Part shown: positions 1 to 64,000 of the stretch, piece by piece
Layout of the letters: each line of letters begins with the position of its first letter
Position numbering within the stretch: position 1 is the first letter of the stretch
Source: a virus
IMG/VR virus record: IMGVR_UViG_3300045988_164075
Direction: 5' to 3' (one strand)
DNA: 64,000 nucleotides
Notes under the pieces: model-generated
Seen by the model: the letters and a program-made list of their open reading frames with translations, nothing else
Told to the model about the DNA's origin: nothing
The model's database searches: none
Made by a program: the position numbers and the translations under genes

Positions 1-714
1 AAAAGCATTACTATTGATATTACAGATTATATTAAATTAACGGATTCATCTCAGAACTATATTACCACACTATTAGATGATCCGATTATATACGCTTATA
101 ATAGTCTAAAAGAAAGTTTAGATAAAGATCTATTTACATTTGCTAATATTAGTATAATTATTGAGAAATTATTTCCTAATAATACTGATATATCGGATCG
201 AGTTTCTAAAGCTTCTAAACAACTACGAGAGATTATTTATAAGCTAAATCATCCAAGTAGTATTGCAACATTATATGATAAAGGAAAACTTGATCGATAT
301 ATTACTACTCAACTAGAATTAGATAAATTAAGTGAAATACATCCGTCTTTACTTTGTTGTAATGCAGGATATTTTGCACCTGATGGAAAATATTATGGTT
401 TAAATGGAACTAAAGCAAATTTTTTACATATAAAGATTGCAGATTTACTTCAACAACAAGAGATTATTCCAAAGGATTGTAATACTCCAGATAGGTGGTT
501 AGAAGAACATGGATGGATTAAACAATCAGGTTCGATGTTGTTATATGGTGGGTATTTTTATAATATATCTATTACTAAAGAACAGATAACTTCTATAGAA
601 CGAATCCTTAGCCAAAGTTATAATTATATTGAACTTCAACATATTGAAAATTCAATTCCTGTAACAAGATTATCCGAGATAGAGGATATTCAATTACGAA
701 AACATTTTAGTTAA
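1..714 (+). CDS. hypothetical protein, 5'-partial (237 codons in window)
   Basis: Frame 1 is open from the window edge to TAA 712-714. It is absent from the ORF track only because no start codon lies in the window. Trp is encoded by TGG (DRWLEEHGWIKQ). The stop overlaps the next start (TAATG). Confidence 0.6.
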   Translation, partial: KSITIDITDYIKLTDSSQNYITTLLDDPIIYAYNSLKESLDKDLFTFANISIIIEKLFPNNTDISDRVSKASKQLREIIYKLNHPSSIATLYDKGKLDRYITTQLELDKLSEIHPSLLCCNAGYFAPDGKYYGLNGTKANFLHIKIADLLQQQEIIPKDCNTPDRWLEEHGWIKQSGSMLLYGGYFYNISITKEQITSIERILSQSYNYIELQHIENSIPVTRLSEIEDIQLRKHFS

Positions 715-1433
715 TGCAAAAAATAATCTCCGTTCAGGGGAACAAGTGAAGTGGTAAGGATACTGTAGCAAAAATGTTACAATATCTTCTTAGTACTCCT
801 AAAATATTACATAAATATGATTTATACTGTAGATTAAAATGATTTAAAAAAGATTATAAAATCGTACGTTATGCTGATAAAATGAAAGAAATGTTAGCAA
901 TATTATTAAATACAAACGTACAAAATTTTGAAGATAGAGAGTTTAAAGAGCAATATTATGTAGATTTTAATACGTTGCAGTTAATTCACGTTGATGAATC
1001 TAATATTAATGCTTTTAAAGATAAAATATTGTCAGATACAAGATTTACAAAAGAAATCAAACGTGTAAATCCAAATTTGACAAAAAACTATTTTCTATCT
1101 ATTAGACAAATATTACAATATTTTGGAACAGAAATTATGCGTTTTTATTTTGGAGATAGGTTATGAATTCTGTCTACTTTAAATAATAGAGGATCGAATA
1201 TTATTATTTCTGACCAAAGATTTATTATTGAAAATATTACTACATATAATTTAGGTGCTGTTATTATTCATATAACTCGACCTGGCTGTGAAAAAAGTTC
1301 TCATTCTTCTGAAACAGAATTAGATAAACTTTATCAAGATAAAGCCTATTCTTATTTAATTGAAAATAACGGAACATTGAGAGATTTATTTAATAATTGT
1401 AAAAAATTAGTTCAAGATGGCTTGTTCGATTAA
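714..1433 (+). CDS. P-loop dNMP-kinase-like protein, 239 aa, with three in-frame TGA (747, 840, 1164) read as Trp
   Basis: ATG 714 to TAA 1431-1433 with no TAA/TAG in frame. The N-terminus MQKIISVQGNK(W)SGKDTVAKML is a GxxxSGKDT-type P-loop. Later QILQYFGTEIMRFYFGDRL(W) and IIISDQRF resemble phage dNMP kinases (family recalled from memory). Track ORF 882..1166 is only the middle fragment. Confidence 0.6.
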
Positions 1434-1587: not shown

Positions 1588-1630
1588 TAAAAATACCCTA
1601 CATGCTTCGGCGTGTAGGGTATTTTTTTTA
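1588..1630. terminator. bidirectional intrinsic terminator at the convergence of plus- and minus-strand transcription
   Basis: A 13-bp stem ATACCCTACATGC/GCGTGTAGGGTAT closes a C(UUCG)G tetraloop (1593-1622). It is flanked by an A-run upstream and a T-run downstream, so a U-tract follows the hairpin on either strand. Confidence 0.75.
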
Positions 1631-4600
1631 AAATATAGATATAGATGTACCTAAACCTCGAAGTGCTCCAAAATTTTCAGTTACTCCTACTCATAATTCT
1701 CTATCTCCTGTTAGTACTTCTCCAACATTATTAAACATGTTTTTAAATATACTATATGCGGGAGGATTTAGATCTCCAATCATTCCACTTATAATATTTT
1801 GTACAGGACCATCTTGAAAAGATCCATAAAGAGCACTTGCAGTTCAACGTTTTATTCACGGTTCCTCTTTGATATCATCTCAAGAAAATAGAGCTTTTAC
1901 TAATAAACCTAATAATAACATAAGTAACATATCATGTAAGAAAAGGAATAGATTTGCTCTTTTTATATCGTCTTTTCATAGTTTATTAAACTCAGATGTA
2001 TTAAGAGTAGATAATGCTTTTAAATACGAAAACATAGACCACATTATTCCTTCCTGAGGTCTACCTACTCATTCATAGAAATATTCTCATTTATCTCCTT
2101 CTTTAAGTTCATTCTCAAGTATAATATCTACTATAGGCTGTCCATTTTCATCAAACGTAATTCGTCTTACAAATTTATTTCCATTTTCATCGACTGCTAT
2201 TTTATAACTCCCCTGATCATAGGTACCAGGCTTTAGTACTCATTGTTCTAGTTTTGCAGATATAAAAGTTCGGAATTGTAGAAAAAAAGATCCTAAAAAC
2301 ATGTGCTTTGCTAACATCTGAGTATTTTTATCGTAATGTCCAAAACACATATCTGCAAATGATTTAATACTAGCAGATTCTCTTGCTGTATAAGCTTTAG
2401 GCAAAGCGTCTCCATCTTTTAAGTTATATCCTTCTCTATTAAACTGTTCTAGCATCGTGATATATAAAGCATGTTGTTTACGGTATTCTTCGCTATTTAC
2501 GTTAGGATTAGCAGAATGTAATAAGCTGAAACGTTTATCCTTTTTAAAATCATATACTAATTCTTCATTAACAACACTGTGCGCATCAAAACATCCATCA
2601 TGCATCATCTTTGCAACTAATATTGTCATTCGATGTAACATATCAGGAGCTCTTGAAAACATATATAACTGATTACTATCAAAGTTTAATATTCCCATTT
2701 TACTTAAACTCATCTCTCGATGTAATTGATCAGCATCAGAATTTGCCATACCGTATTGTCAATTCATATACTCTAACAGTGTAATTTTTCCAATAGACTT
2801 TGGAGCTTCCTTTAATACTGTCGTCATTGCTTTAGTAAAATCTTTCATAGTAAATTGATCCTTACCATAAATTCCAGCAGCAGTTCTAGATAATCCAATT
2901 CAAATGCCCTGTAATGTTTCTCTAGTACCTGATTTAAGGTTAAATCCAAGTGTAGTAGCTGTTGCTACTTGTTTTAGCATAGCCATAAACTTATATGCTG
3001 GTTGAAGTCCCTCGTCCATTATAGGTTCGTTATAGATATTTAATTGAGTATACTTTTTTATAAATTCAATCAGATTATCTACCTTTTGACCATAAAAGAA
3101 TTCTTGACACAATAATCCAATTTTAAATCCTTGAATTAAAGGAAGAAATTTAGAACTTACCTCTTCTGTTACGTATACATGTAAATAACTTCTAATAAGA
3201 TCTTCAAGATTAGTTTCCATACTCTCTACACCTTCATCATTAAGTATCTTGTTACGTGTAGATTGATCAATTCTGAATTTATTATATACTTCTAAACTAT
3301 CTCGTTCATAATTAGTTTTTTCCTCCTCTTGAGCATTAAAAAGTTGTCTAAAATTAGTTGCTTCTTGATAACTAAATTTTAAAGCTTTTCATACTCCTCC
3401 TTGTTTAGCTTGAGATTGAAATGAACCAATCATTAATGGAACTTGATAATATTCTCCAGATGCTTTTGCCTCTTCAATCGCAGTCTCATTACCTCTAAAT
3501 TTAATTTCATTAACTATTTCTAGAAATGTTGAAACTAATTCTTTGTCTGCTCCTGTTAATTCTTCAGGATGTTTTAAAGAAAATTCTTTTGCGATTTTTC
3601 CATTAGCATCTTTAACAAATAGATCATCATAAAATCTAATTTCCCCTCCAAATGCTTTTATTTGATGATGTGCCTTATAAAAACGTTGAAATACTCCTTG
3701 AATTTTTTTATTTCATTTTAATTCTTCTTTACGAATCTGTTCCTCATGTAATGCAATCAATCTACCCATTTCTTGGATATTTTTTGAATCAGCATTACTA
3801 ATACTAGTTATATTGATTCCTAAACTTACTCCTCCTTTAAATCCAATTCAATTACTCGGGTCTTTTTCAATATAGTATCTGTATCCATTTAACTGATTTA
3901 ATGCTTTTAATAATAAACTGTACGATACTCATATTGGATCATTAGGATTAGGCTTTTCGTTTACTAATTTGCGATATTTATTACGTAGTGCTTTAATTCT
4001 ACTAAGCACTCATTCTTTTTTACTTTCTAAGGTATTTTCATCAGGACCTATAGTTCAATTCATTAATTTATTTCATTCTTCCTCTTGAATTAAGTCATTA
4101 ACTGTAAATAATACAGATTCTAATGTATTTAGAAAGTTATTTGATGATAAATTGTTTTTAATGTTTGCAATTCTACAAAGTCTACTAAAATTATCTAGTA
4201 AAGTTTCATTATATTCTTCTACTCCTTGTGAAGTTCAAATATTTAAACTTTTAATTCGGCTAATTTTAGTTCCAGAAATTAAATTACTGTACTCATTTAA
4301 GTAAATCATTACTTTCATTAAATCAATATTACCATTAGTAGCAGGTAAAACAGTCTTAGGATCAATACCTTTATCTGTTAGAAAAGTACCTAATATAGAT
4401 GTACCTTTAGCTAATTTAAGGGTTTGATTTAATTCATTATTAGTAATAGAAACAATCTCTGTAACTCCTTCTTTTTCAAAAATAAATATACCTAAATCGT
4501 TTAAAATACTATTTTTTCTAAATAGCCATTTTTGATCAATATACTGTTTAAAATGTTTTTCTAAAAATACATCTTTATTAACACTATCGTCTGGAGAAAG

Positions 4601-6073
4601 TTCGCTTGTTGTTATTTCCCCACGTATCGCAGCTTCAATTCGATCTGCTAATGTTGCTAGTTCTCCTGCTTTACGTTCATTAATTCTATTAATATATGAT
4701 AACAGTTCTTTTTCTAATTCAGATTCATTTTTAGCATAATATACTTTGCGATTATATTTATCTCAAAATTTATATATACCCTTAGCAGATTCTTCTGTAT
4801 TTTTTGGAATACGTTTTACAAAAGTTGGAGAGTTCCTATAATACTCGTATGTTGAATTAGTAGTTTGAACTTTTCTAGATAAGGTTACATCGGGGAATAG
4901 TGTATTAAATGGTTTGGCTATTTTATCAATTAAATCAATATTTGTATCTTCATTTGGACGAATTGGAACAATTTTCTTAACATTTTCGTAAATTTTTCCA
5001 CCAGGCTCCGTGCCTCTAGGATTTCTTACAATTTTTGTAGAATCAAAAATAATTTCATTTAAATTCTCTACTGTTAAACCATTAGTATTGTAAGATAAAT
5101 CTAATTGAATTGGAACTACATTTATATCTGCGGTTTTAATTCCATATTGTTCTAAAATCATCTTGTAGAAGGTCATTTGATATGATGCAGAAAGTTTTTT
5201 AGTACTATGTCAAGTATTATTTAACTTATTAATATCATTTCGCATCATATCTCAGTCTCCAACTCCTTTACGGGATACTTTGAAATCATATATATGCGCT
5301 ATTCCATTCTCATCTATAACTAACATATCGATTCGTCCGTTAATAGAATTAATTGGACTGTTATCTTCAATAACTTTCCCATTATTATCTATTAAATAAC
5401 GATTACCTTTACGATAATTTTCATTAAGTTCCCGAGATTTAACAGCTAATTCTGTAAATATTTTTGCTTCATTGCCGTATCTACGTTTTATATCAGCAAT
5501 AAATTCTTTAAATTCACTAACAAATTCTTCCTGCTGTTCTATACTAAATAAGGAACTTTTAAAATTAGATTCTCTGCCTTCAATAACAGCTTGTGCTAAA
5601 TTATGAATTTCTGTTCCATAATTAGTAAGTTGTTTTCAAGAAGTTTCTTCCTGTAATACTAAATCTTTAGCTGTACTTTCAGATAAACCCGTAGCTAATC
5701 ATTCTTTGATACGCTTTTCTCTTCAAGCTTTAATATTAAATGGAGTAATAATATGTTTACTTAAGTCAGTAGGATCTCCAAATTCAGTAATGGCTCTAGT
5801 AACAGAAATAGAATTAGGAATTTTTAATATAACTTCACTATCTCCATCTTCGTTAATACGGATATTTTCTACAGCACTTTCTTTATATTCTAATTTAGCA
5901 AAATTCAAGTTATTTAAAGTTGCTGCTTGTGGAGTAGTTGAAAATGTTCTATCTAATTTAACAGTAACATTTTTATCCGCATATTGTGATTTAAGAAAGG
6001 AGTCCAACTCAAAATCAGAGTTGAACGTCCTTTCCTTTCCATCTATATTAATTGTAAATATACATTTACTCAT
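1628..6073 (-). CDS. giant virion-operon protein, 1481 aa, with an N-terminal PD-(D/E)XK-nuclease-like motif and a hydrophobic C-terminal segment
   Basis: Same-frame fragments 5723..6073, 4763..5176, 2900..3220 and 2240..2749 are separated only by TGA. I walked every codon 1628-6073 and found no TAA/TAG. It starts ATG 6073 (MSKCIFTINIDGK) and ends TAA 1628-1630. Motif GRIDMLVIDENGIAHIYDFKVS lies at ~5270-5340, and LFLFLHDMLLMLLLGLLV near the C-terminus. Confidence 0.8.
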
Positions 6074-9100: not shown

Positions 9101-12100
9101 GGTCTAGATTAATATTTGCTACAATTCCATGATTGTGTATTCGAGTAGTAAACATTAACCGATCAAGTAATTCTACGGCTTCATCATTCCTTCCTGTTTT
9201 TAATAGATCAATAAGTTCACGATATTTCGTATTGTAATAGTTAGAAAGTAAGAAATATACTTTAAGCGATACCGCAGTAATACCAATCACTTCTTTACCT
9301 ACCATATTTTGTTCTTGCATAACAAACTTACTTGCGGGATTATCAGAAGTTCTTAATTTTTCTTCTTTTCCTAATGCTGATTTCTGAGCAGCCTTTTGAG
9401 GATCATCCATATTAATAGGAATGTGTAGATTAATTTGATTCTTTGGATTTAAAACTACATCTAAAATTCCATCAACAACCCTATTTTTTAAACCCTCGTT
9501 TATTTGCTCTGTAGTAAGTTCTGTTTGTGCATGTTTATTTAAGTCTCTCAAAAATATATAGCGACTGTTTGGTTCTACCGATTCGTCAAATGCAATACTA
9601 TTGTAGTCTCCTTCTAAAATCGATTTAAATATTTTTAAATTTCCATTTAACAGTACATCATCTACTTCCTCTTTCGTTACATAATATCCATTTTCATTAT
9701 CAATAGTATAGTGTTTGTGATTTGGTAAAGGAAGTTGTCTAACTTCATTTAAATCATATGTATCTGCTAATCTTGAAGGATAATATAAAGTTCCATCGTT
9801 TTTAACAGAACATCCAAGTATATACTGTTTATCAATCATGGTGTTAGCTGTATATTTCTATACAGATCAGACTATATCTTATCTTAATATATTATTCATT
9901 AAGACCTCTCCATTTCCACTTTTTCAAGTGTACCTTCGACAGTATTTTCATCTGTCTCTTTTAATAACTTCATATATTTTTCACACTCTATTTTATCAGG
10001 AATTACCTTATACATCATATGGGGACACATATAAGGTTTAATTATTTCTATTAGCTTTCGTCCTTCTCTAGCGCAAAAACTAATTATATAAGATTGTTGT
10101 CGTTTATCAAAAACCTTTGTAGGATATAAATCTCACTCAGTATTAAAATATTTAATTATATCCTCAGCTTGTTCTAATTTGCAATAAGTAGATATAGTAA
10201 TATAAAATCCTGCATAAACTCTATCTCCATTTTTATTAATTCTAGAACGTCTTGATAACGAACCGTCGTCCATAATTCAAATTGCTAAACCTTGAGGACC
10301 AAGTCTTTTCAATAATTTACTATTATATTTTGTTCTTCCGTTTTCATACTCAACTCTTCGAAGAACTTTACAAAAATCTGATACAGAAGTTTGAAATCCG
10401 TATCTAGTTACTACTTTACCTTTAGAATAACCATTTACTTGTTCTCATTCTCTAAAAATACCTACTTTAACTCCATTATCCTTAAGTAGTTTTCATTTTC
10501 AGTAACAGTATTCTTTTTGTGCTTTGCAATGATTTATATTTAAATAACCTTTTGTATGTATATGTCCATCCCCAATAGACATAGCAATTATTAAATTTCT
10601 TCCTGTTTTATTTAAGCGTGTTTTTAATTGTTTCATACTATTAAAGTCGAATTATTAAGTTATTAATATTAGTCGTTGAACCTTCCATTTTTATATGGCT
10701 TGGCTGCTGATTGTCTTCGCCATAACGCGGTCAGAGTTTCCAGCAATTAAAAGAGTTTTAATACGACATGATAAGTTTATCGTAATCGGAGCCTTCCATT
10801 CACGTAACTACTTTAGCTACATAAACATCATTTACTTCACTATCTGTAAATATTACAATCTCCATAGGAGCAAATGACTGCATTGATTGTGACGGTATGC
10901 GAGTACCTACATGAAGTAAAGACTTTTCAAATGCTTCATATTGATTAAACGCTAATTGTTTTATTCTTTGATTAAAGTTATATATTTCATTTTGATTTAA
11001 ACTTACGTAACTAATATCTGCTGTTGGATTGATTTTAGCTTCATGTAAGTTTCCTTCACTATCTCTAGTATGTAAAGCAATAGGAATATTATTTTCTATA
11101 TTGTAACGAAATTGATAAGGTAATAATTTTTTAGTATTTTCGCTAGTATAATTAAATTGATATGTATTAATTAATCCTGATTTTCTTAATTCACCTAATC
11201 GATCTATAGAATTTATAATAATTAAATCATGAACATTTCCATTTGTATCCGTATACTTATAAAATTGTTTCTCATCATTTGTTGAAAATTCTTTTTCATT
11301 ATAGTATACAATATTATCAATAATTTTAAAATCAGGATTTGGAGTAATACTACCTGTAAATGCTTTTGGAACTTCTTCTGTTCTTAAAACTTTTACATAG
11401 AATTGTTTTCCTGTTCCATCAAATAATACAATATCATATGTTAATTTATCTGGATTTCCAATGTTATAGTTACTTTGCATTCGATTATAAAAGAAATTTT
11501 CTTTTTCTTGTCTAATCTGAGCAATAGAGTCTCCTTTTTGCAATCCAAATTGTTGAGCTTGCCTTTTCCCCATTACAATTTGAGTTGGAGTAACATTAAC
11601 ATTAGATACTTTAACAACTCTAACATTTGGATTAGTAATACCAAAAGCAGTATTATTAATAATAGATTGATTGTCAGCTAAACTATTTAGTTGTAATTGT
11701 ATCTTTTGTTGTAAATCAGATAATAGACTATCTATGTTTAACGGTATATTATCGATTGGATGTAAACCTAATGCAGATGATAGTAATGTTTTTTCATACT
11801 CTGTTAAATCCTCCCAGTTCTTTAATTGTTTTCTACGAGAACTTAAATAATAAGATGCTCTTACTGCATCTAAGTCATATATACTAAAACGTTTATTTAT
11901 TTCATTTCCAAATCCATCTAAGCCTACAACTACATCAAAAAATGTATTTGACTGTTTTAGATTTTTAGGTTTAATTGTTCAGTTATAGTATTGTTGTCCT
12001 AAAGTTGCTTGGTGCTTATATAAATCATATTTTTCTAAGGAATCGATTTTAATAACAGTAGGATTATCTTCTTCATTAAATATTACAATTGTATCTTCGA

Positions 12101-37425: not shown

Positions 37426-37426
37426 A

Positions 37427-51064: not shown

Positions 51065-52138
51065 TTATCTATAATATTTATCGTATAGATCAGAAAGTGT
51101 TTTAGGTTTTTCAGATTTATCGTTAGCATTAGTTTTATCTACTACTGTTTGACTAGCAGAAGAATTTTTATTACTTTTTGCTGTACGACGTTCCTGTTTT
51201 AAAATATCTTTCCAATATTCGCTAATATTTGAAATAGCATCTTGTCCAAAAAGTCTATACCATGCTAGTTCAACTAAAACTTTTGGATCATTTAAATCTT
51301 TAAAAAACTGACTATATCCATTAGTATCTTGTTCTAGTAAATAAGATAATATTTTAGATTTTTCATCATCTTCAATAACCAAAACATCACTTTCTGGATC
51401 TTTATAATCAAAAGATATTTCTTTAAAATTAGAAACAGATTCAGTTAAAGCAGAACGAAGTTGATTATATTCCTCTTCTTCTCTTCTTTGTGCTTCTAAG
51501 GCAGCTTCTTTCTCTTTTTCCTTATAGTCATTTCGAATAATCTCAACTTTCTTTTTAAATAAATCTTCATTCTCCTTTGCTTTATCTAATTCATACTTTA
51601 ATTCTTCATCTGACATACTAGTATATCTTGCTTTTAAATCTGCAAAGTATAATTCATCATCAGAATATGAATCTACATCGTAGTGTTGTTCTGGAGCATT
51701 ATTATTTAATGAAGCTTTATATTCTTCAACAGCAGTCTGTTTAAAATAATCTATTGCTTGTTCTAGTGTAACTCCATTATTTCTAAGCCACTGTACAGTG
51801 TTTATTTCTGATTCAGATAAATCAGGAGTAGAAAGTTCTTTGAGAATTGTTAACTGTTCTTTTCCGCTTAAAGAATTAAAATCTACTTCTTGAATTTCTC
51901 CATCTTCTGTTTCATATTTAATCTTTGAAACATCTTCAATACCTTTCTCTTTTAAGAATTCTTCAATAGGATTAATATCTACTTCTTCATTTGAATCACT
52001 ATTACTTTGATTCTCTAATTCAGGTTGACTAATCTCTCCTGTCTCAGTTGTACTAGATCCTTCTACCTCAACTTGCTCAGTTGTAGTAGTTTTATTATCT
52101 TCTAGTAAACTATCAAATAAATTTGGTAATTCTGCCAT
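51065..52138 (-). CDS. acidic coiled-coil protein, scaffold-like (357 aa from ATG 52138)
   Basis: This is track ORF 51065..52168, but its first 10 codons overlap the promoter -7 box, so ATG 52138 (MAELPNLFDSLLEDNK) is preferred. It is Glu/Asp/Lys-rich with 3 TGG and 0 TGA, and lies immediately upstream of the capsid gene. Confidence 0.7.
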   Translation of the reverse strand: MAELPNLFDSLLEDNKTTTTEQVEVEGSSTTETGEISQPELENQSNSDSNEEVDINPIEEFLKEKGIEDVSKIKYETEDGEIQEVDFNSLSGKEQLTILKELSTPDLSESEINTVQWLRNNGVTLEQAIDYFKQTAVEEYKASLNNNAPEQHYDVDSYSDDELYFADLKARYTSMSDEELKYELDKAKENEDLFKKKVEIIRNDYKEKEKEAALEAQRREEEEYNQLRSALTESVSNFKEISFDYKDPESDVLVIEDDEKSKILSYLLEQDTNGYSQFFKDLNDPKVLVELAWYRLFGQDAISNISEYWKDILKQERRTAKSNKNSSASQTVVDKTNANDKSEKPKTLSDLYDKYYR

Positions 52139-53193: not shown

Positions 53194-56100
53194 TTAAATA
53201 GAGCCGTATATTACAAAATCTAACTCTTGATATATTCTAGCTCCATCTGTTTTATTAATTTGAAATATACATGTATTATTATATTTTTTTACTACCCGAC
53301 AAATCACATCATTAATATCCATACCTCTATTTGGATCAGTAACTCAATACTCATAAGGAACAGGAGTTAAACTAATAGCATAATTAGTATGTCCTATATT
53401 GTGGTATATATATCCAAATCAGTTATTAGTTTGATTAACATCAGGATTTGATGCGTATTGATACTGTACACTCTGTACTTCTATATTAGGAGCTGAACTA
53501 TATTTTGTTAGAGTACAACTAAAAGGATCTGATAATATACTTGTAGGTATAGAAATATGTCCTGAATATAATACAGCACTTGTGTTAGTTTCTCCGTTAC
53601 TTAATGATCATGGACGGGTAGTTAAATTTGCTAATGGATTATATGTATATATTAATAATTGCGCTGTGTTTGCGGGAATAGTTAAAGTAGGAGAATCAAC
53701 AGTAAATATCCCTACATAGATAGATACAGAACCTGTGCTAACTGGTTTATATATAGTAATGTTTTTCCCAATATATTTATCGTTAGCAGCAGGTAATACA
53801 ATATTTAACTCAGAACTAGTAGGTTTTGCAATTAAATTTATTTTTTCATCTATATAATATATTTGAGATGTTTCATCTAATATAGTAATATCCTCAAACA
53901 AAGCAGTTCTCGATTTAATACTGCCAGCGCTATTTCAATATAAATTTCCAAATCCAATTGAACCTACTCCTTCATCATCACTTTGAATACCATAGATATA
54001 ATTACTCGTATAAGTTTTTGTATATACAGTAGATTGGGATGCAGCAGGCCCACTTTTTTTAGTTACTTTTATTTGAACTTCTTGAGCAGGCATATAATCT
54101 AGTACATTTGATTTCCAATCTTTAAATGTCAACCCTCCATCAATACTGTATTGACTTTGATATGTAAAACTATAATAAAGTGTAGAAGGAATACCTGAAT
54201 TTCAAGTAGTTTTACTATATATTTCTACTCCATATATTGGAATTACTTCCATTTCGTTCCCAATAGCATAACATAAATCTGAAGCTCCTACTGTAGGAAA
54301 TCGATCAGATCAATTATTTCGATCTTTAGAAAATAGTCATGCTGATCTATTTCCTATATGCATAGATATATCTGAAATAACAGCTCCAGACATTGTTCAT
54401 GTAATATGCCCATTTGCTAATGAACCTCCTCCATCTTCATAAAATTTGGTCGATCCGTTTCCAAATTTAGCAGAACCAATATTATTTAGTTCAATTCTAT
54501 ATGAACCGTCGCTGTTTGGGCCAAGTTTAATATCTCCGTTAAGAATAATTAAACCTTCATTACTTCCTCCATCTAAATAAAGTGTACCTTCTTTATTTCA
54601 ATAAATATGTCCTTGCGCTAAGTATCCAGATCCATCATTATTTAATAATATTCCAACTTTTCTATTAGAATTTGCATATGAACCAAGAGCAATACACCCA
54701 TCCTTAATATATAAACCGCCACTATTATTTTGAGCAAACTCCTCGATTTGACCTAATATTGTTGTAGCTTCTGAAACATAATCTGGATTATAATCTCCTT
54801 TAATAAAAATTCCCATTCCAGACATTCTACCAAATACCTCATCATAAGCTAACCCATCTAATCTACCTAAACGTATTTTTATATTAGAATTATTTACATA
54901 GGGTTCATCAGTAATATCTTCGTTATAATCGTTTTTACTATAAGAATAATTAGTATTATCAATTACATCAATGTAAGGAGCCTTATAATCTGCTGAAGTC
55001 ATATAAACTGCTCCACGCCGATCAGGATGAATAACATTATCAATTCGAACAAAAGTATCTCCTTCTTCAATTACTCCATTACTTTTACTAGATAATTTAA
55101 TAAATACAGTTTTATTCTCTACACGAGTAACGACTCCTTCGATATTATAAATATTATATCCTACAGTTTTTTGTAATCTAATAACATCGTTAACTCAAAA
55201 TACAGTTAAATTTGAAGAAGTCTCATCTTTCATAGTACATCTAACAATGTTATCATCAAAGTTTTCAATTACTCCATCAATATTGTAAAAACTATTATAC
55301 AATGTATCTAAAAAATTAAGTATACTTAATTCTCCATATTGCGTAGGATATAATTCTTTAGTTTTGTTTCATAAAATTTCATTTGTAATAATTCCTTCAG
55401 GAGTTCTTCCTGTTAATAATGTTGTAGCATTATCAACCTGTGTTTTATTGTTAATATCAATTGGTATATATGGCTGATTTGAATAATCAGGTATAAATAT
55501 ATTATATCATTCTTCTAATGTATGTCACTCATTATCTAATGTTCCAAAGTTATAATCATTTTGTATAGAATCAACAATTGTATAGGATCAAGTGTTTGCA
55601 TCATCGCCTGAATTAATTGTAGGAGAAAATTTATATTCTACTATAGCACTGTCTGAGACTCAAAAAGATCCATTAGTACATTTAATTCGATTAATAATAT
55701 ACTCATAAACACGCATTGCTTTACGTACGTTGATATAATCAATATCTAATGTACTATTAGCAAAATCTAATATTGTATCATTTAAAGTATTTTTATTATT
55801 TGTACTCTTTAAAACATTATCAATAAATAAGATATTTTTAATAGTTCAATTTCCAGAGATAGATTCGTTTTCTGCTTTTTTAGCAAATTTATCATCAGTA
55901 TATCCATTTAAATACTGCGCATTTAAATTCTCTACTAATTGTTTAGAGTTAATAATAAATGGAGGTTCAGTAGTAGTTAGAATTTTAATTGAATTTTTTA
56001 CAGTTAAATCTTCAATTTCTCAAGAACTACCAGTTTGTTTTACGGTATAAGGTCTATACTCTCCATTGACTGTAATATAGAATCCCCCATCTAGTGTAAG

Positions 56101-56337
56101 TATCACTTTACTATCTCCAGGATATGTTATAGAAGTAAGATCATCGCTACTTTCTAAAATAATAATATCAGGATCATTTTTTGAATCATTTGATGTATTG
56201 TCTAATCCAGTATTATCGTAGTTTAATTCATAATATTTATCTCTAACTCTTATATAAATTCGGCCAAAAGTATTTAATACTAAATCTTTACTTATTGAAC
56301 CTACTGTTTCTGCATTTTTATGTAAAGCATCTGCCAT
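53194..56337 (-). CDS. tail fibre/spike-like protein, 1047 aa
   Basis: Fragments 56020..56373, 54598..55002, 53935..54132 and 53608..53901 share a frame. All gaps were walked and only TGA interrupts. The end is TAA 53194-53196. The start is taken at ATG 56337 (MADALHKNAETVG) because the first 12 track codons overlap a promoter-like TATTTTTG and follow a terminator. Confidence 0.75.
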
Positions 56338-56384
56338 AGAATTTTTATTTATAAATTTTGTACAAAAATACAAAATATTTAAAT

Positions 56385-56415
56385 AAAAAAAAAGTTAAGA
56401 ACGAATTCTTAACTT
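56385..56415 (-). terminator. intrinsic terminator
   Basis: On the minus strand AAGTTAAGAA-TTCG-TTCTTAACTT (10 bp) is followed by TTTTTTTATTT. It lies directly after the stop of the 99-aa gene. Confidence 0.75.
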
Positions 56416-56424
56416 TTCAAATAA

Positions 56425-56724
56425 TTATTCTTTAGGCTGTTCCTTTTCTTTTAACTGCTCTTCCAGTTCTGCTATTCTAGCTATTAATTCTTTATATTTC
56501 TCTTCTGTAACATTTTCTTGGGAGTTTCCTTTTACAGATTGAAATAAATCGTTGTATTTTTCATACAATTGTTTCTGTTTGTTTACTGATTCAAACATTA
56601 TTCGATAAGAATCTACTTGAGATTTTAATTTAGTTTCTAAATCATCTCGTCTTAAATATATTTCTGTATCTCCGTCTTTTACAGATGTAGGAACATAGTG
56701 TTTTTCAATCACATTTTCCATCAT
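56425..56724 (-). CDS. small coiled-coil protein (99 aa)
   Basis: Intact track ORF ending in TAA, with no TGA. It is heptad-like and Glu/Lys-rich. Confidence 0.7.
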   Translation of the reverse strand: MMENVIEKHYVPTSVKDGDTEIYLRRDDLETKLKSQVDSYRIMFESVNKQKQLYEKYNDLFQSVKGNSQENVTEEKYKELIARIAELEEQLKEKEQPKE

Positions 56725-56845
56725 AATATAAAAAGTTAAAAGGTTAATAAATATTATTACATATATGTAATGTTACAATTGCACTACAAATATAGAAATA
56801 ATTTTATCAACCCTTTTGCTTAAGTCAAAAAATATATTATGTTTT

Positions 56846-57175
56846 TTATAATTTTTTTATATAAAAATCTAATTCAGTCGAAAACACATCATAATCATTT
56901 CGAAAATTAGGATCATTAAAGTATAATTCTTTTGCTTTATTACATCAATATACTACACTCGAATGTCCACAGTTAAACTCTTTAGAAATTAAATTAACTA
57001 AATTATCCTTATCATGTTGTTTTAAACTATAAAATTTATATACTATTAATTTTTTTATATCTACAATATTACGTTTAGAACTCTTACTTAATATTTTATC
57101 TTCCGAAATTTCAAATAATTTACTACAGATACTAACTGCTTTTTTAAAAACTTGAGGAAAATATTTTTGATCCAT
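56846..57175 (-). CDS. small helix-turn-helix protein resembling DnaA domain IV (109 aa, one in-frame TGA)
   Basis: Track ORF 56945..57175 continues through TGA to TAA 56846-56848. SKSSKRNIVDIKKLIVYKFYSLKQHDKDNLVNLISKEFNCGHSSVVY(W) follows the DnaA C-terminal pattern (R..I...R.ia.YL...l...s...Ig..f...dHsTV) as recalled from memory. Confidence 0.5.
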
Positions 57176-57204
57176 TAATACATGCTTATATATTAATAAT
57201 ACTT

Positions 57205-58935
57205 TTAGATTATTCTAGTATATCACATAGTTACTCTACTACCATTTCCTGAAATCATACTTCTAATCTCATAAATATTACCTGTACTTATTTGTCGAAT
57301 CATTAATGTTCCAGATTCATTAGTTTTCATATAAACTTCTGCATCTATCGTAACTCCCGTTGTAGTTAAAGTAGCATTGTCCCCAGATTCATTGGTAGAT
57401 TCTATTCCTGATGTTCCTCAGATAGACCATCGTCTATAATCAACTAATTCTGTTCCCGAAATCGAGTATAGCATTAAAGAAGGATTAGCATTGGCATTTT
57501 TTATCAAAGCAACTTTAATATTAGCCTCAGTAATACTTAACGAAATATTTCCAGCAGCAGAAGTAAAAGTTCCTTTTACACTAGTTGGTTTTATATTTGA
57601 TAAAAGTTTTCACGGAGCTCAAGATTCATCTATTTTTTGTCTATTCCAAATATTATCGTTTGAATCTCAAGCTAATTGATTAACTACATTAGTTTTTGTA
57701 AATACAATTAATGTCCCTGAAAGATTATTAGGAGAATTACTAGTAGATTCCTCATAAGAGAAAGTTCCAGAAGATATTTTTTCATTGAGATCAGTTGTTG
57801 TATTTCCATTTATTGGAAAATATATACTAGAAAGCTCAAGTATATTTCGGATATTTGTTTTTTCATCATCCGTTAAAGTTGAGATAGATGCGTTATATAA
57901 TGATAATTTGTCTATTTCGTAACTTTTTTCAGATTTAAATATTCCTGTTGTATTATCAAAACTATCTATTTTTATAGAATTATTTATAACATAATATACT
58001 AAAATATCATCAGTTTTATATAGATTAGCTAATACTGTTCCATTTAATGTAATATATTTAATAGCTAATGTTTCTTCGGAACTAATACTATCAAATAATG
58101 ATTTATTTGCAGTAGCATTAGTTCCTGTAGTTGTAGTATAAGTAATAACAGATAAGTTATTTTCTTTTAATTCATCTTTTGTAGCAAGATTTGAAATATC
58201 AGGTAATTCAGATTTATCTGCTTTACTTGCTAACGCATTAGTTAATTCAGAATTAGTAACCAAATCTGTTATATTAGGGATATCAGTTGTATCCGCTTTG
58301 TTATCTAATATATTTTGTAAATTTGTTATATCACTAATGACATGACTATGAATCTTATTAGCTTTATTATTTAATTCTTCTTTAGTCGCTAAATTTGTTA
58401 TGTTTGGAATTTCTGACTTATCTGCTTTAACATCTAATGTAGTTTGTAAATCAATTACATCAGAAATAGAATGTGTATGTATTTTAGAAGCTTTGCCATT
58501 CAATCTATCTACTAACTCTGTTTTAGTAGCTAAATTAGTTATATCAGGAATTTCTTCTTTAGTAACAAAATTAGTTTTATCTATAGTATAAGTTGATTTG
58601 TCTAATTTATTATCATTTAATATCTTTCCTTGATTAGCAGATAGTGCTTTACTTGCATTTTCTGTAGTTAAGTTATCTACTACTTCAACAGATTTTATAT
58701 TACTATCTACGTAATTTTTTACTGCTTTAGAACTTGGATAATGTACATCATCTGCACTATTTGTAATTTCTACTTCTTTTCTTAATATTGTTTCAAAATT
58801 AGCTATTTGAGCATTAAATTCTTCTTCAGTTCCTTTATATCCTCCTTCTTGTGCAGCTTCATAAGCAGATATTCCTGCAGTGCCAGGAAATATCTCTCAT
58901 TTTTGAGTTTGTTTATTAAAATACTTTACTGCCAT
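57205..58935 (-). CDS. tail fibre protein with HxH repeats (576 aa)
   Basis: ATG 58933-58935 (MAVKYFNKQTQK(W)EIFPGTAGISAYEAAQEGGYKGTEEEF). It is in frame through track ORF 57667..58503 (KIHTHSISD / KIHSHVISD and repeated IPNITNLATKEEL units). It continues through several TGA to TAA 57205-57207. The region was walked. Confidence 0.75.
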
Positions 58936-58943
58936 TTTGTTAT

Positions 58944-61900
58944 TTAAATTATCCCCCCTCCATTTTGATTTCAGGCGTATCCTTGAGTTTTTTCTACTCC
59001 ACTCATATCGTGTCATACAAAAGAAAAGTTAAGAGTTCTACCTGGACCTAAACTAGCATAATAAACAAATGAATTATTACCAGGTCCAGTTCCCTGAACA
59101 GTAGCTCAAGCAACATTAACAGAAAAGAACAAATAATCCTGTACATAAGTACCTGAGTATATAGTATATCCAGATTTCATTTTAGAAGTTCCTGTAGTCA
59201 TTACTGTCATAGAACAAGTACCTCCATTTCTATCTCCTCTCACAGGATTAAAAAATCCTGAATTAAAGGATGGCATCATAAGATAATTTTCTTCTTGATA
59301 AACTTTTATAGTAGCTACCTGTTGTTTTCCATTCATAATTACAGACACATTACTTGTAGTTAATAATGTATCTCCATTTGTAGCATTAGCTCCTAAACTA
59401 GGAGCAGTAACAGTGCCAGTTCTAGCATCAACATTTGTACCAGAATATGTAATCGATGCTCCTGACGTTATTGTACCACCTCCAGTAGTAGCTCCGTTAT
59501 ATCCATAAGTTTGAGAATATGATAAGTTTGGAGATACTGAACCACCTCCAGCAGGTGCATTTGGATAAGTAAAGTTAGTAATTGTTATAGGACCATAAGT
59601 TTTAGTTCCTGCACTCTGTTGAATTGTTAAATTAACGGTTTTAGTTTTTCCTTGATGATTTGCTGTAAATTTAACAGTACGTGTTTTTACCGTAGACGTA
59701 TTATTAGCAGAAACAGTAAGAATTGAACCGTTTATAGTTCATCCTGAAACATTTGTAGTATAAGTACATATTGCAGAATCAAGTATATTTTCATTTCCAG
59801 CACTATATCCTGAAGTATAAGTTACTTTTTGCGTTATACCAGTTATATAATTTGATAAATATACTTGCCCACCGCCGCCAGCTACAGAAATAGCAGATAT
59901 TTGATATGTTATATCTATATCTCCATAAGACTTACTATTAGCTTGTTGTTGAACTTTACCTGTAGTCGTTGAATTAATAGTTAATGTATTTCCTGAATAT
60001 GGACTCTTAGGAGTTCATGTATATTTAAGAGTTTTCGTAATTACAGGCGATGTTGTTACACCCGAAACTGTAGCACCTTTTGAATTTGCAGTTACTACTC
60101 CAGTAGAAGTATTAAGCGTCGCAAATGTTCCTGAAGATCCAGGTCAAGAATATGTTCTTGCCATACTGCCTGCTCCGTATGTTGCAGCAGGAGTTGTAGT
60201 TGTTGTTCCTCCTGATGTAAATGTAAAAGTTATAACATTATCACTATTCGTAGATGGACTAGAATTTCCTCCACCTGCTCCAATCTGAGTATATGTTAAG
60301 TTTTCTGTTTTATTAAATGCTACTTTTGTTACATAATTCGCTTGTTGATATATATCTACAGATTTAGTATCAGATGATACTCCATTCATTGTTATTACTA
60401 AATTTGCCTTAAGTACTACTCTCCTTGTAGTATACGTTGTACCACAAGAATTTGCTGTAACTACTCCCGTTGAAGCATTAATAGCACCCCCATTAACTGA
60501 ATTTGTACCAGTTCATTTAGCTGTAGCTCCTGATGTTAAATTAGATAGCGCTTCGGTGTAACCAGATGTATAATTTTGTGTTCTACTCTGTGTATAAGAT
60601 AATGTAGGACTTACTCCTGTTCCTGCTGCATTTATATCACTATAAGTTAAAGTATTAATAGTAGGTTTACCATAAGTAATAGATGTTTTAGCATTAGCTG
60701 CAGTATAAAACGTTGCCTGAGCTATAACTGTACCAGTTGCAGAACTCTGTCTTAAATATATTGTATAACTTTTTCGATCTCTAATTACATTATTGTAAGA
60801 AGTTTTATTTAATGTACTAGTAGTTGTACTAGAACTATTTGTATAGTTACTTTTACTTAATGATAAATAATCTGTTCCACTTAAAGTTAAATATGCAGTT
60901 CCAGTTCAATACTCTGTAGTTGCTGTTCCAACATCACCTGTACTATATACAGGAGTTTTTGTTCTTCTAATAGAACCTCAAGTAATTGTTTTAGATCCAG
61001 CTCCAGCGGGTAAATCTCCAGATGGAACAGTTAACGTTCCAGTTCAATTTCCATAATTATAACTTACTATTTCGTTAGCAGCTTGAGTTAAAGTTAGTGT
61101 AGCATTGGCAGAAATACTAGAATTTGAATATCTTAATGTAGCAGTTCTAGCTGCTCCAGCTACTGTAGTTCTATCTGCTGCAGTAACTTTTACTGCATAA
61201 TTATGATAAGAAGACTGAGCTATACTAAATCCAGTTCCAGATATTGTTCATATATTACCTGGTGCAACAGTTGTATCAAAATTAGTACTTTCAGATGTAT
61301 AAGTTAGATGAGCATAATACCCATCAATAGTTTGTCCTCCAACTGCAAACGTTGTTGTTTGATTTGTAGAATTTGCGTTAGTAATACTAGTTGCAGTTAC
61401 GGCATTAGCTTGTTGATAAACTACTATTGTATCTGTGTCTGTACTTGTAAGAGTATCTCCTCCAACTGAACTTGGATTAGTAAATTTTAAAGTTAAACTA
61501 GCGTTTACGCTAATACTTCTACGTGCCCCAATCACTGTAGTTCTGTTATCTCCAGTAACTATACCGCTAGAATTTACAGACATTCCTGTTGCAGAACCAC
61601 TATACGTTCTACTCACTACTGTTTGTGCTCAGAGACTATTAACTTCTGAATCAGCAGAGGTTTTTACAGTTTCCGATGAAAATACATATTTACATGCTCC
61701 TCTACCTTCAGGATTCTTAGTACCACCTTTAGCTGGAATATCACCTGCAGGATATGTTAAATTCGTTGTATAACCTGATTGTGGTTGAGCTGTAATTGAT
61801 TCTACTTTATTTAGTGCTTGAGTTGCTTTAATATCACTTCTACTATATGACCCTGTTTTAGTACCACCTAGCGTATAATTAGCAGAATGTGTTCAAGTAA

Positions 61901-64000
61901 GAGTAAACGTTCGAGTTATAGGATTTGACTGAGTTGCAGCAGATATTGTATAGCCCTTAGATGATACAACTACTTGACTACCAGCCATACCTGTAAAAGT
62001 ACCTGTCGGAGTCATTGAATAAACAGCATTTCCGTTTAATGTACCATATGTAGAAGCTGGAGTTGCAGAAGATGTAGATCCAGATGTAAATGTAAAAGTT
62101 TGAGCATATTGTCCTCCTCCCTGTGCAGCGTACGTGCCACCTTTAGCTGGAATTGTAGGATAGGTAATTGTTTCAGTACCTTGAGCTACTGCTATATTTG
62201 TTACATAATTAGCTGCTTGTGGTGGTTGAGCAAATACTTTAACTGTTTTCCCATTTAAAGTAAGATTTATTTCTGTTACTCTTCCTCTATGATCTGCAGT
62301 ACTAAGAGCACATAAATTATCTATATTAATAGTCATATTAGGAAGTGTTCAAGCCCCCGTAGAAGTATTAAGTCCAGTACTACTAATGCCTGCTTCTAAT
62401 ACTGTCATATAAGCTAAATCAACTGTGAGTGGATTTACTTCTGTTCCTGGGTTTCCATCACGTAAACTAAAAAAGAATACAGAACTTACAGTTCCTGTAC
62501 CATAAGTAACTTTTGCAGTATAATTCTGTCAATCTCCAGTACCCTGTGAGGATGTTAATCATTCAATAGTGCCTCCTGTACCTAAAGAATTATAACCTAA
62601 TTGAAATCTATAACCTTTAGGTACTTTTGCAACAAATGTACAATAATAGGTGTTGCTGGCAAGTCCAGTATAAGACATACCAAATCCTCCTAAATTAGGA
62701 TTTGTTCCAGAACCTTTGTTTTGCCAACGCATTATATATCCTCCGTTTACTGAAACGGGATTTGTTGCAGCAACTCTCGTTAAAGTACACTTGCCAGAAT
62801 TAGCATTATCATATACGAATACATTTTTTACATCTACTGTAAATGCAGGATTAGCTAATCACGGTTGAGATAACCTAGCAACAGGCGAAACAACTAAAGA
62901 CTGTTTATATGTAATAGTTGCTCCAGATGTAATATTATTAGTTGCTCCAGATGTATATGTAGTAGATTGCGAATAACTAACTGTTGGTACTCCAGAATCT
63001 CCACCATTAGCAGGAACAACTTTAGTATATCGAGCAAATACACTAGGTGTAGAATACGTAGCATTATTGGCTTGTTGTTGAATTGAATAAGCTAAACTTG
63101 CATTTCCATAAGAAGCAGTTCCTGTAGCAGTTAAAATGGTTCCTACTGTAGTTCCTCTAGAAGGAGCAGTAATCTTATTACCAGATAATGTTCATCCGTT
63201 TGGAGTAGAAGTAGCAGATAATATAGGAGTAACAGAAATACTACTTGTTGCTGTAGAAGATCCGTTTCAATAGGTATTATAAGTACCGCCTATTGTAACA
63301 CTTCCGCCAGAAGCAGGAATTGTTGTAATTCCACTTAATACTAATTCGTATCGAACTGTTCCAGCAGATTGAGTTATAGTAACTTGAGCTTCTTTTCCAT
63401 CATAACTAACTTTATATATTCCAGATCTAGTTGTTGTAGTTTTATTCTCATCAAAAGTTATAACTCTTTCAGATAATGAACCAGTTCCACTTATTTTACT
63501 AAATGTAGCTAATGAATTAATGTCTATTGTTTGAGTTTCACTAGAAGAATTTGTTTGATATCAATCACTACAAGTTCCATTAGAAAAAATAGCTCTTTTA
63601 TATGTAATACTTCCTTTAGTTTGAGTAGCAGTAGCAGATAAAGCTACAGTACCTCCTGTATTAGCTATATTTGTTGTAGGTGATTTAGTAATATTTATAG
63701 AAGTAGTAACTCAATCTTCACTAGTTTCTGTTTTTTCTTCTTCTGATATTTTATAATAAAATCCGTTTCATGCAGCTAAATCAAATAATGGAGATATATC
63801 TCCTTCACAAATTCCGCAAGAATAAAATTGTACTGTACCTAAAATGCTATTAATTCCAGCTGCATAATTATCTTTGAATACACGATCGTTTCTGACATTA
63901 TAATACAAATATCATCCGTTTCCTAAATCAATTTTCTTATCGTTAATTGTAGGAGATAGTGTAGCATTTGTAGCTGTTCACTGACTAAATATTCAATTAT
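58944..64000 (-). CDS. giant repeat-rich tail fibre, 5'-partial (>=1685 aa in window), with BACON/Ig-like tandem modules
   Basis: One frame is open from the window edge (64000) to TAA 58944-58946. All 84 sequence lines were walked as triplets and only TGA interrupts. Modules recur with ...V.V/I.QQ.AN.V... strands (IKVYQEENY, DIYQQANYVT, VVYQQANAVT, LTIQQSAGT), PA.GG loops and SG(W)T motifs. Confidence 0.8.

What the first reader, a model, noticed from the sequence alone, without database searches (positions are those of the whole stretch)
1..64000. TGA is a sense codon (best fit Trp), so the fragmented ORF track reflects recoding rather than gene decay
Every break between same-frame minus-strand fragments is TGA. 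I walked codon by codon through 1628-6073, 6156-16463 (minus introns), 16453-24501, 24515-26335, 26316-30458, 32866-37425, 37427-40714, 53194-56337, 57205-58935 and 58944-64000 and found no in-frame TAA or TAG. Stop-free runs of 3-8 kb in ~30% GC DNA cannot be chance. TGA sits at hydrophobic or aromatic positions, for example LAGLIDADG motif 2 (LAI-W-IMDDG), BACON-like SG-W-TINGS, and DGLD-W-GDAG. TGA->Trp recoding in gut phages, including crAss-like ones, is established; here it can be read directly.
Basis: partly seen in the sequence, partly recalled or inferred. Interest (0 to 1): 0.8.

Follow-up and report, generated by a model that had tools for sequence, protein, structure and literature searches.

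The report
TGA read as tryptophan, crAss-like phage
This 64 kb piece of a large gut crAss-like phage really does use the stop codon TGA as a tryptophan codon in most of its genes, but this was already published for the same phage subgroup in 2021; the only open point is that no tRNA able to read TGA can be found.

Summary
Treating TGA as sense raises stop-free sequence from 25.6 to 58.4 kb. Freeing TAG or TAA does not, and simulated sequence never gives a run above 184 codons (observed 2,691).

Trp is the best fit. In the muzzle gene, 19 relatives with no in-frame TGA carry TGG in 17-19 of 19 at 7 of the 16 window TGA columns. Over 60 TGA columns in 10 genes, Trp scores +98, Tyr +26, Gly -109 and Cys -118. 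TGA plus TGG make up 1.13% of codons, a normal Trp content. Ten of 17 strain differences at these codons are TGA/TGG swaps.

The window belongs to a ~160-165 kb Zeta-group crAss-like phage. Yutin et al. 2021 list this subgroup (zeta_13, including OLWB01000021) as 'TGA|w', so the finding is already known.

Nuances:
- The first ~16 kb of the early/tRNA block has no TGA.
- A head-gene module is TGA-poor.
- No tRNA(UCA) or tRNA-Trp turned up in ~143 kb of close-relative contigs, and none is listed in the published tables.

The decoder is therefore unidentified.

The parts
1628..6073 (-). ORF of 1481 aa with 24 in-frame TGA and 2 TGG; ends in TAA
6066..16463 (-). Giant RNA-polymerase-like gene in three pieces: 16463->10779, 9836->8943 and 8585->6066. 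IVS1 (9837-10778) splits the DxDxD motif (EGSDYD|IDK). IVS2 is 8586-8942. The exons carry in-frame TGA and almost no TGG.
   Evidence: Intron-less relatives L122 and L123 read straight through both junctions. Neither IVS has an Rfam match at E<=1.
9899..10636 (-). LAGLIDADG homing endonuclease ORF inside IVS1; 5 TGA and 0 TGG, including the W of LAIwIMDDG
   Evidence: PHROG 11023, E=2.4e-18; motif codon checked
16453..24501 (-). ORF of 2682 aa with 21 TGA and 1 TGG
24515..30458 (-). Two ORFs: 606 aa with 4 TGA, and 1380 aa with 18 TGA and 1 TGG
32866..37425 (-). crAss muzzle protein (MUZ), 1519 aa, 16 TGA and 4 TGG. This is the main test gene for the meaning of TGA.
   Evidence: Pfam crAss_MUZ. 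At 7 TGA columns, 17-19 of 19 TGA-free homologues have TGG.
37427..42401 (-). 1095-aa tail protein (18 TGA), two small ORFs, and CrAss_Ring_1 (41712-42401, 4 TGA and 0 TGG)
42401..52138 (-). TGA-poor head-gene module. It holds a weak Ring_2 match, the 379-aa, 243-aa and 271-aa ORFs, exons of an intron-split gene (47720-48028, 50195-50674) and a 357-aa acidic ORF. Together these have 1 TGA and 13 TGG.
   Evidence: Fisher p=1e-10 against the rest of the strand. In 47 recoded relatives the homologues of 43148-44287 have 0 TGA and 101 TGG; those of 45074-45889 have 0 TGA and 72 TGG.
46115..50231 (-). Four group I introns (47465-47735, 48040-48323, 49690-49916, 49952-50231) and two NUMOD-type homing-endonuclease ORFs (46115-47014 with 4 TGA; 48613-49692 with 1 TGA)
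   Evidence: Rfam RF00028, 54-74 bits; NUMOD1; counts
53194..64000 (-). Tail and tail-fibre ORFs: 1047 aa (17 TGA), 603 aa (6 TGA), and more than 1680 aa running off the window (25 TGA and 1 TGG)
714..1433 (+). P-loop kinase-like ORF on the opposite strand, 239 aa, 3 TGA and 0 TGG. The TGA at codon 151 aligns with TGG-Trp in 28 relatives.

Best explanation
The window is part of a ~160-165 kb Zeta-group crAss-like phage (subgroup zeta_13 of Yutin et al. 2021). In its replication, transcription, virion and lysis genes UGA is read as tryptophan (translation table 4), and only TAA, rarely TAG, ends genes.

The first genes expressed sit in a ~16 kb block that also holds about 19 tRNA genes. These genes avoid TGA altogether and spell Trp as TGG, so an unmodified standard-code host can translate them.

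What is shown and what is inferred:
- Shown: TGA is a sense codon.
- Shown: Trp is the best fit.
- Shown: TGA use is graded along the genome.
- Inferred: the code switches during infection.
- Unknown: what decodes UGA. No tRNA(UCA) or tRNA-Trp gene was found.

Genes carry up to 25 TGA codons, so decoding must be efficient. More than about 90% per codon is needed for a 10% yield of full-length protein. That points to a dedicated decoder, or to removal of release factor 2 activity combined with host tRNA-Trp. Plain leaky read-through would not suffice.
For: Coding capacity and chance.

Muzzle gene. Nineteen homologues have no in-frame TGA. At 7 of the 16 window TGA columns they carry TGG in 17-19 of 19. 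Conversely, at columns where at least 90% of those homologues have TGG, the window has TGA 6 times, TGG twice and TTT once.

Ten genes against 73 relatives. At window TGA positions the aligned residues are W 585, the relative's own in-frame stop 624, Y 287, L 226, G 99 and C 12.

BLOSUM62 sum over 60 columns: W +98.4, Y +26.4, G -108.8, C -118.2.

TGA plus TGG make up 1.13% of codons on the window's minus strand; TGG alone is 0.19%.

Among close-relative contigs, 10 of 17 differences at these codons are TGA<->TGG.

Gradient of TGA/(TGA+TGG): early/tRNA block 0.24, with no TGA in ORFs of 100 aa or more over its first ~16 kb; helicase/DnaB/primase block 0.62; late block 0.83.

Identity of the phage: Pfam crAss_MUZ and CrAss_Ring_1, the DxDxD motif split by an intervening sequence, and close-relative contigs of 158-166 kb.

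Literature:
- PMC7886860 text and Supplementary Data 1 list zeta_13 as 'TGA|w'.
- PMC12386605 describes opal-suppressing Zeta phages.
- bioRxiv 10.1101/2021.08.26.457843 proposes early standard-code genes followed by a code switch.
Against: No tRNA with anticodon UCA and no tRNA-Trp was found in the window or in ~143 kb of close-relative contigs (Rfam).

About half of the TGA columns lie in variable or gapped regions and say nothing. Three of the 60 columns have Gly as the majority residue, and one Walker-A position in the kinase-like gene has Gly in 28 relatives.

There is no protein-level evidence. Published proteomic validation covers TAG->Gln in crAss-like phages, not TGA->Trp (abstract of PMC9523058).

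The TGA gradient and the tRNA inventory come from related contigs, 85-99% identical to the window by region, not from the window's own genome.
Confidence: 0.92

Rival explanations
1. The host itself uses table 4 (TGA=Trp), as Mycoplasma-type bacteria do. The phage simply matches its host, and there is no code switch.
For: No phage tRNA(UCA) or tRNA-Trp was found. Replication genes as well as late genes carry TGA. Host predictions for opal-recoded Zeta phages point to Firmicutes: Holdemanella and Faecalibacillus in PMC12386605 Table 1, and Intestinibacter for OLWB01000021 in Yutin's table.
Against: The first ~16 kb of the early block has no in-frame TGA in ORFs of 100 aa or more, and those ORFs carry 37 TGG. 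One 451-aa ORF alone has 12 TGG and 0 TGA. Nothing would select for that in a table-4 host of 28% GC. The named candidate hosts are standard-code genera (my own knowledge). Published surveys conclude that recoded gut phages infect standard-code hosts.
Confidence: 0.05
2. TGA remains mainly a stop codon and is only leakily read through. It would act as a translational attenuator, keeping low-copy proteins scarce, rather than being fully reassigned.
For: TGA is nearly absent from the head-gene module and from two of its genes across 47 relatives. It is frequent in large, probably low-copy proteins such as tail fibres, the RNAP block, the terminase and the portal. No dedicated decoder was found.
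Against: Genes carry up to 25 TGA codons. At 10% read-through per codon the yield of full-length protein would be 1e-21 to 1e-25. Essential proteins such as the terminase, portal, muzzle and the RNAP-like protein could not be made.
Confidence: 0.03
3. TGA encodes another amino acid: Gly (table 25), Cys or selenocysteine.
For: A few TGA columns have Gly as the majority residue in relatives (3 of 60; kinase codon 12). A phage tRNA-Cys(GCA), which is near-cognate to UGA, is conserved in the tRNA block.
Against: At conserved columns the TGA-free homologues have TGG, not GGN or TGY. Summed scores are Gly -108.8 and Cys -118.2 against Trp +98.4. If TGA were not Trp, Trp content would be only 0.19%. 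About 190 TGA codons in 64 kb is incompatible with SECIS-dependent Sec insertion (established knowledge).
Confidence: 0.02
4. The ORFs are fragmented because the genes are decaying, or because of assembly or sequencing errors.
For: Under table 11 the large genes break into 4-25 pieces.
Against: Only TGA interrupts the frames, never TAA or TAG, although these make up about 6.5% of off-frame codons. The same TGA positions recur in dozens of independent assemblies and in relatives of 46-72% identity.
Confidence: 0.01

Closest known systems
Zeta-group crAss-like phages, subgroup zeta_13 (for example cMAG OLWB01000021, 162,190 bp), Yutin et al. 2021, Nat Commun 12:1044 (PMC7886860)
   Same: Shared features:
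- crAss muzzle and ring genes.
- Genome of ~160-165 kb.
- Dense group I introns and homing endonucleases.
- RNAP gene broken inside the DxDxD motif.
- TGA read as Trp; the table lists 'TGA|w'.
- No suppressor tRNA and no tRNA-Trp in the published tRNA list.

Contig L178 (OLWB01000021.1) is 97.8% identical over 9.4 kb to an IMG/VR contig that also carries a 98%-identical copy of the window's kinase-like gene.
   Different: Nothing essential differs. The window differs from the sampled relatives by 1-15% in nucleotide sequence, depending on the region. Intron and homing-endonuclease content varies between strains.
Phage Lera and other 'Echekviridae' Zeta phages (PMC12386605, 2025)
   Same: Opal recoding of TerL, RNAP, helicase, muzzle, ring and lysis genes. 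Trp was inferred from homologue alignments. A tRNA block sits at the start of the forward gene block. Homing endonucleases are present.
   Different: Lera encodes tRNA-Sup(TCA) and tRNA-Sup(CTA). This lineage shows neither. It resembles entries 4-7 of that paper's Table 1, which are opal-recoded with no suppressor tRNA detected. This lineage also has a lower GC content (28.5% against 32%).
TGA-recoded Jade, Sapphire and Agate phages (Borges et al., bioRxiv 10.1101/2021.08.26.457843)
   Same: Early genes are written in the standard code. Structural and lysis genes, and intron-borne homing endonucleases, carry in-frame TGA read as Trp. The proposed model is a code switch during infection.
   Different: These are unrelated phage lineages. 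Jade carries a 'code change module' of suppressor tRNA, TrpRS and RF1. No such genes turned up among the 29 early and replication proteins of this lineage that I scanned against Pfam.
Translation table 4 in Mycoplasma and Spiroplasma
   Same: UGA means Trp. In AT-rich DNA, TGA far outnumbers TGG (177 to 35 on the window's minus strand).
   Different: In those bacteria a genomic tRNA-Trp(UCA) exists and RF2 has been lost (established knowledge). Here the recoding covers only part of one genome, and no cognate tRNA is seen.

Membership tests
Translation table 4 (UGA = Trp) usage | In-frame TGA inside long conserved ORFs, with TAA/TAG as the only terminators | tested here: met
Translation table 4 (UGA = Trp) usage | TGA positions align with Trp (TGG) in homologues that do not use TGA as a sense codon | tested here: met
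   Muzzle gene: 7 of 16 columns have TGG in 17-19 of 19 TGA-free homologues. Over 60 columns the W score is +98.4 and the next best is Y at +26.4.
Translation table 4 (UGA = Trp) usage | A tRNA-Trp with anticodon UCA (or another demonstrated UGA decoder) is available | tested here: not met
   None was found in the window or in ~143 kb of close-relative contigs. About 19.6 kb was not scanned by me. Published tRNA lists for complete zeta_13 genomes show no Sup and no Trp. A more distant relative (L170, positions 19014-19085) does have a tRNA(UCA) with a G73 discriminator.
Translation table 4 (UGA = Trp) usage | Release factor 2 activity at UGA is absent or neutralised | not testable with these tools
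   The host is unknown. No release-factor, aminoacyl-tRNA synthetase or deaminase domain appeared in 29 early and replication proteins scanned against Pfam.
Translation table 4 (UGA = Trp) usage | Peptides with Trp at UGA positions | not testable with these tools
Crassvirales, Zeta group | crAss-type virion module (muzzle and ring proteins) | tested here: met
   PF25731 and PF25729 on 32866-37425; PF24228 on 41712-42401; weak PF25702 on 42401-43066
Crassvirales, Zeta group | Giant RNAP-like gene with a DxDxD motif, fragmented in Zeta phages | tested here: met
   DYD|ID is split by a 942-nt intervening sequence that carries a LAGLIDADG ORF
Crassvirales, Zeta group | Genome of 145-192 kb with a high density of group I introns and homing endonucleases | tested here: met
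   Close-relative contigs of 158-166 kb; four Rfam group I introns and three homing-endonuclease ORFs in the window
Crassvirales, Zeta group | Placement inside the Zeta clade in a TerL phylogeny | not tested
   Only indirect evidence: a sequence chain links the window to OLWB01000021, which Yutin et al. place in zeta_13.

The most novel reading that the evidence does not exclude
This lineage reads about 190 UGA codons per 64 kb as Trp, at high efficiency, without any canonical phage tRNA(UCA) or tRNA-Trp. If so, UGA decoding rests on something not yet described for phages. Candidates are a phage factor that neutralises host RF2 so that host tRNA-Trp(CCA) takes over, anticodon editing or modification of a host tRNA, or a non-canonical decoder RNA that tRNA finders miss. 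The conserved avoidance of TGA in the presumably most abundant capsid genes would then reflect a real cost of this route.
Probability: 0.3. Interest if true: 0.7.

Novelty: already known. Interest (0 to 1): 0.2.

Why it matters
For annotation the point is practical. Under table 11 more than half of this phage's coding sequence is lost or broken up. Under table 4 the giant virion, RNAP and tail genes are restored.

Scientifically the recoding itself is established. The open question is how UGA is decoded in the many opal-recoded Zeta phages that lack a suppressor tRNA. This abundant lineage would be a good test case. It has hundreds of near-identical assemblies, a TGA-free early block that should encode or trigger the switch, and a sharp contrast between TGA-free and TGA-rich genes.

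Tried and rejected
What led nowhere:
- **Family searches.** PHROGs and Pfam on most window proteins gave nothing beyond the LAGLIDADG endonuclease, muzzle and ring matches.
- **GenBank phages.** Megablast against the phage collection found no close relative. tblastn found only relatives of 35-38% identity.
- **Exact-protein look-up.** The look-up of encoding contigs refuses proteins that contain TGA-encoded Trp. I therefore walked the genome with the search for related loci, which used all 8 viral scans and the metagenome scan.
- **Relaxed ARAGORN.** It produced only obvious false positives in this AT-rich DNA, including a 98-nt 'tca' call inside the RNAP gene.
- **Two odd tRNA-like genes in the tRNA block.** I examined both as possible UGA decoders and rejected them. 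One has a 6-nt anticodon loop, AUUUUA, and looks Lys-like. The other lacks a D-arm and has anticodon UAC.
- **The tRNA(UCA) of relative L170.** BLAST found no homologue in the close-relative contigs.
- **Bacterial genomes.** A genome-contig scan with the primase found nothing, so there is no host hint.
- **The TGA-free capsid-region genes.** PDB sequence searches for three of them found nothing. The homologue search for the 379-aa protein listed only 99-100% identical sequences among its best 120. The single-sequence AlphaFold model was therefore unusable, with a mean pLDDT of 32. Their roles remain an inference from gene position.
- **The two intervening sequences in the RNAP gene.** Rfam gave no match.
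Full report
**1. Observation**

The window is 28.5% GC. With three stop codons, stop-free runs of at least 600 nt total 25.6 kb. With TGA treated as sense they total 58.4 kb, nearly all on the minus strand. Freeing TAG gives 25.6 kb and freeing TAA gives 32.1 kb.

Each has 0 internal TAA and 0 internal TAG, 4-25 in-frame TGA and only 0-4 TGG. The longest TAA/TAG-free run is 2,691 codons. Thirty first-order Markov simulations of the window never exceeded 184 codons.

The three motif examples (LAIwIMDDG, SGwTINGS, DGLDwGDAG) do have TGA at the W position.

The only correction concerns '6156-16463 minus introns'. This is three pieces in different frames: 16463->10779, 9836->8943 and 8585->6066. 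Relatives L122 and L123 read straight through both junctions (...EGSDYD|IDKLYIM... and ...SAATD|NAKELILAK...). The window therefore carries two intervening sequences, and the first splits the catalytic DxDxD motif.

**2. What TGA means**

I masked TGA as X so that alignments would not be biased towards Trp.

The muzzle gene (32866-37425; Pfam crAss_MUZ) has relatives in 79 viral contigs. Nineteen of these homologues have no in-frame TGA and 14-20 TGG, so they give an independent reading. At 7 of the 16 window TGA columns they carry TGG in 17-19 of 19. The other nine columns are variable or gapped. Conversely, where at least 90% of them have TGG, the window has TGA six times, TGG twice and TTT once.

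I extended this to ten genes against 73 relatives. Window TGA positions align with W 585 times, with the relative's own in-frame stop 624 times, then Y 287, L 226 and F 136. Gly appears 99 times and Cys 12 times. A BLOSUM62 sum over 60 informative columns gives W +98.4, Y +26.4, Gly -108.8 and Cys -118.2.

TGA plus TGG make up 1.13% of minus-strand codons, a normal Trp content. TGG alone would be 0.19%. Among close-relative contigs, 10 of 17 differences at these codons are TGA<->TGG swaps. On the plus strand, the kinase-like ORF 714-1433 has three TGA. The one at codon 151 aligns with TGG in 28 relatives.

Gene decay, Gly (table 25), Cys and Sec are therefore rejected. Trp is well supported.

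**3. What the sequence is**

Exact copies of the 379-aa protein occur on contigs of up to 165 kb whose gene calls already assume table 4. Pfam finds crAss_MUZ and CrAss_Ring_1, plus a weak CrAss_Ring_2. Rfam finds four group I introns at 47465-50231. There are also two NUMOD-type and one LAGLIDADG homing-endonuclease ORFs.

These features match the Zeta group of crAss-like phages described by Yutin et al. 2021 (PMC7886860):
- genomes of 145-192 kb;
- TGA->Trp or TAG->Gln recoding;
- RNAP genes broken inside DxDxD.

Walking along related contigs reached OLWB01000021.1 (L178), a cMAG that paper discusses by name. It is 97.8% identical over 9.4 kb to an IMG/VR contig that also carries a 98%-identical copy of the window's kinase-like gene. 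Yutin's Supplementary Data 1 lists OLWB01000021 and the other seven zeta_13 cMAGs (157.9-162.2 kb) with translation 'TGA|w'. The recoding is thus already published for this lineage. A 2025 paper on Zeta phages (PMC12386605) repeats the finding for other members.

**4. Distribution of TGA**

I pieced together about 143 kb from related contigs, which are 85-99% identical to the window by region.

| Region | TGA use |
|---|---|
| First ~16 kb of the early block (holds about 19 tRNA genes) | No in-frame TGA in ORFs of 100 aa or more; 37 TGG |
| Early block as a whole | TGA/(TGA+TGG) = 0.24; the TGA codons lie mostly in homing-endonuclease-like and small ORFs |
| Helicase / DnaB / primase block | 0.62 |
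| Window's minus-strand block | 0.83 |

TerL, portal, tail-fibre and lysis genes to the right of the window are also TGA-rich.

Inside the late block, the head-gene module at 42401-52138 has 1 TGA against 13 TGG, compared with 175 against 22 elsewhere (Fisher p = 1e-10). The pattern is conserved. In 47 TGA-recoded relatives the homologues of 43148-44287 have 0 TGA and 101 TGG. Those of 45074-45889 have 0 TGA and 72 TGG. Neighbouring genes run at 0.56-1.0. The three homing-endonuclease ORFs have 10 TGA and 0 TGG.

By position these TGA-free genes lie next to an intron-split gene that I suspect is the major capsid protein. In crAss001 the major and auxiliary capsid proteins are the most abundant virion components, with nine copies each per asymmetric unit (PMC10172136). 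I could not confirm the assignment.

**5. Mechanism**

Three things are shown: TGA is sense, Trp fits best, and early genes are compatible with both codes. The model of Borges et al. is inferred: the unmodified host translates the early genes, and then something makes UGA readable.

The expected agent, a tRNA(UCA), was not found. There are no tRNA genes at all in the window. The tRNA block of the close relatives holds the following, with no UCA and no Trp:
- Leu-UAA, Leu-UAG
- Pro
- Met (two genes)
- Gln
- Glu (two genes)
- Ser-UGA, Ser-GCU
- Ile-GAU, Ile-UAU
- Asn, Gly, Thr, Asp
- Arg-UCU
- Cys-GCA
- two odd tRNA-like genes

Published tRNA lists for complete zeta_13 genomes agree. A more distant relative (L170) does carry a Trp-like tRNA(UCA) with a G73 discriminator, so the canonical route exists in the wider clade. 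Pfam scans of 29 early and replication proteins showed no release factor, tRNA synthetase or deaminase.

Single genes hold up to 25 TGA codons, so decoding must exceed about 90% per codon. Simple leakiness cannot explain it. Both papers acknowledge that some recoded phages lack a detectable suppressor.

**6. Verdict**

The observation and the interpretation are both right, but the phenomenon is already known, down to this subgroup. Interest is low. What remains worth following is the unidentified decoder, and the conserved exclusion of TGA from a few head genes.

Noticed in passing
window 42401-52138 (-): A head-gene module inside the heavily recoded late block almost lacks TGA: 1 TGA against 13 TGG, compared with 175 against 22 elsewhere (p = 1e-10). 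In 47 recoded relatives the homologues of 43148-44287 have 0 TGA and 101 TGG, and those of 45074-45889 have 0 TGA and 72 TGG. These may be the most abundant capsid proteins, but I could not identify them.
   Followed up: partly
window 8586-8942 and 9837-10778 (-): Two intervening sequences interrupt the giant RNAP-like gene. The first carries a LAGLIDADG ORF and splits the DxDxD motif (DYD|ID). Neither matches any Rfam intron model at E<=1, unlike the four group I introns in the head region.
   Followed up: partly
window 47465-50231 (-): Four Rfam group I introns (two of them adjacent, at 49690-49916 and 49952-50231) and two NUMOD-type homing-endonuclease ORFs break up a putative capsid gene. 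Its exons (50195-50674, 47720-48028 and others) use only TGG. Intron content differs between strains: in L004 the downstream exons form one 285-aa ORF.
   Followed up: partly
L165 9914-9984 (also L160, L164, L167, L168): A conserved tRNA gene (Rfam 45 bits) has a 6-nt anticodon loop, AUUUUA. ARAGORN calls it Lys-like with a two-base anticodon.
   Followed up: partly
L165 12254-12311: A 58-nt tRNA-like gene without a D-arm (Rfam tRNA, 40.8 bits; anticodon UAC) lies right after tRNA-Thr. ARAGORN misses it.
   Followed up: partly
L170 19014-19085: A relative encodes a tRNA with anticodon UCA and discriminator G73 (Trp-like). Its protein used for the search is about 51% identical (contig IMGVR_UViG_3300029723_000002). 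The window's own lineage has no homologue of this tRNA.
   Followed up: yes
L165 8236-8814 and L160 1308-2217: An early-block ORF has a C-type-lectin / FGE-sulfatase-like domain (Pfam Lcl_C, FGE-sulfatase). A GC-rich stretch in L160 that codes in several overlapping frames is reminiscent of the target of a diversity-generating retroelement.
   Followed up: no
window 1-11418 compared with L086 and L088: Identity between strains is uneven. It is 97-99% across the head and tail genes but only 85-90% across the RNAP-block end of the window.
   Followed up: no
window 1880 (-), gene 1628-6073: In one related contig a TGA codon about 84 codons from the end of the 1481-aa ORF is replaced by TAA. That would shorten the protein in that strain.
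   Followed up: no
L169 2542-2948: ARAGORN reports a tmRNA gene in the tRNA region of a related recoded phage contig (IMGVR_UViG_3300045988_176639).
   Followed up: no
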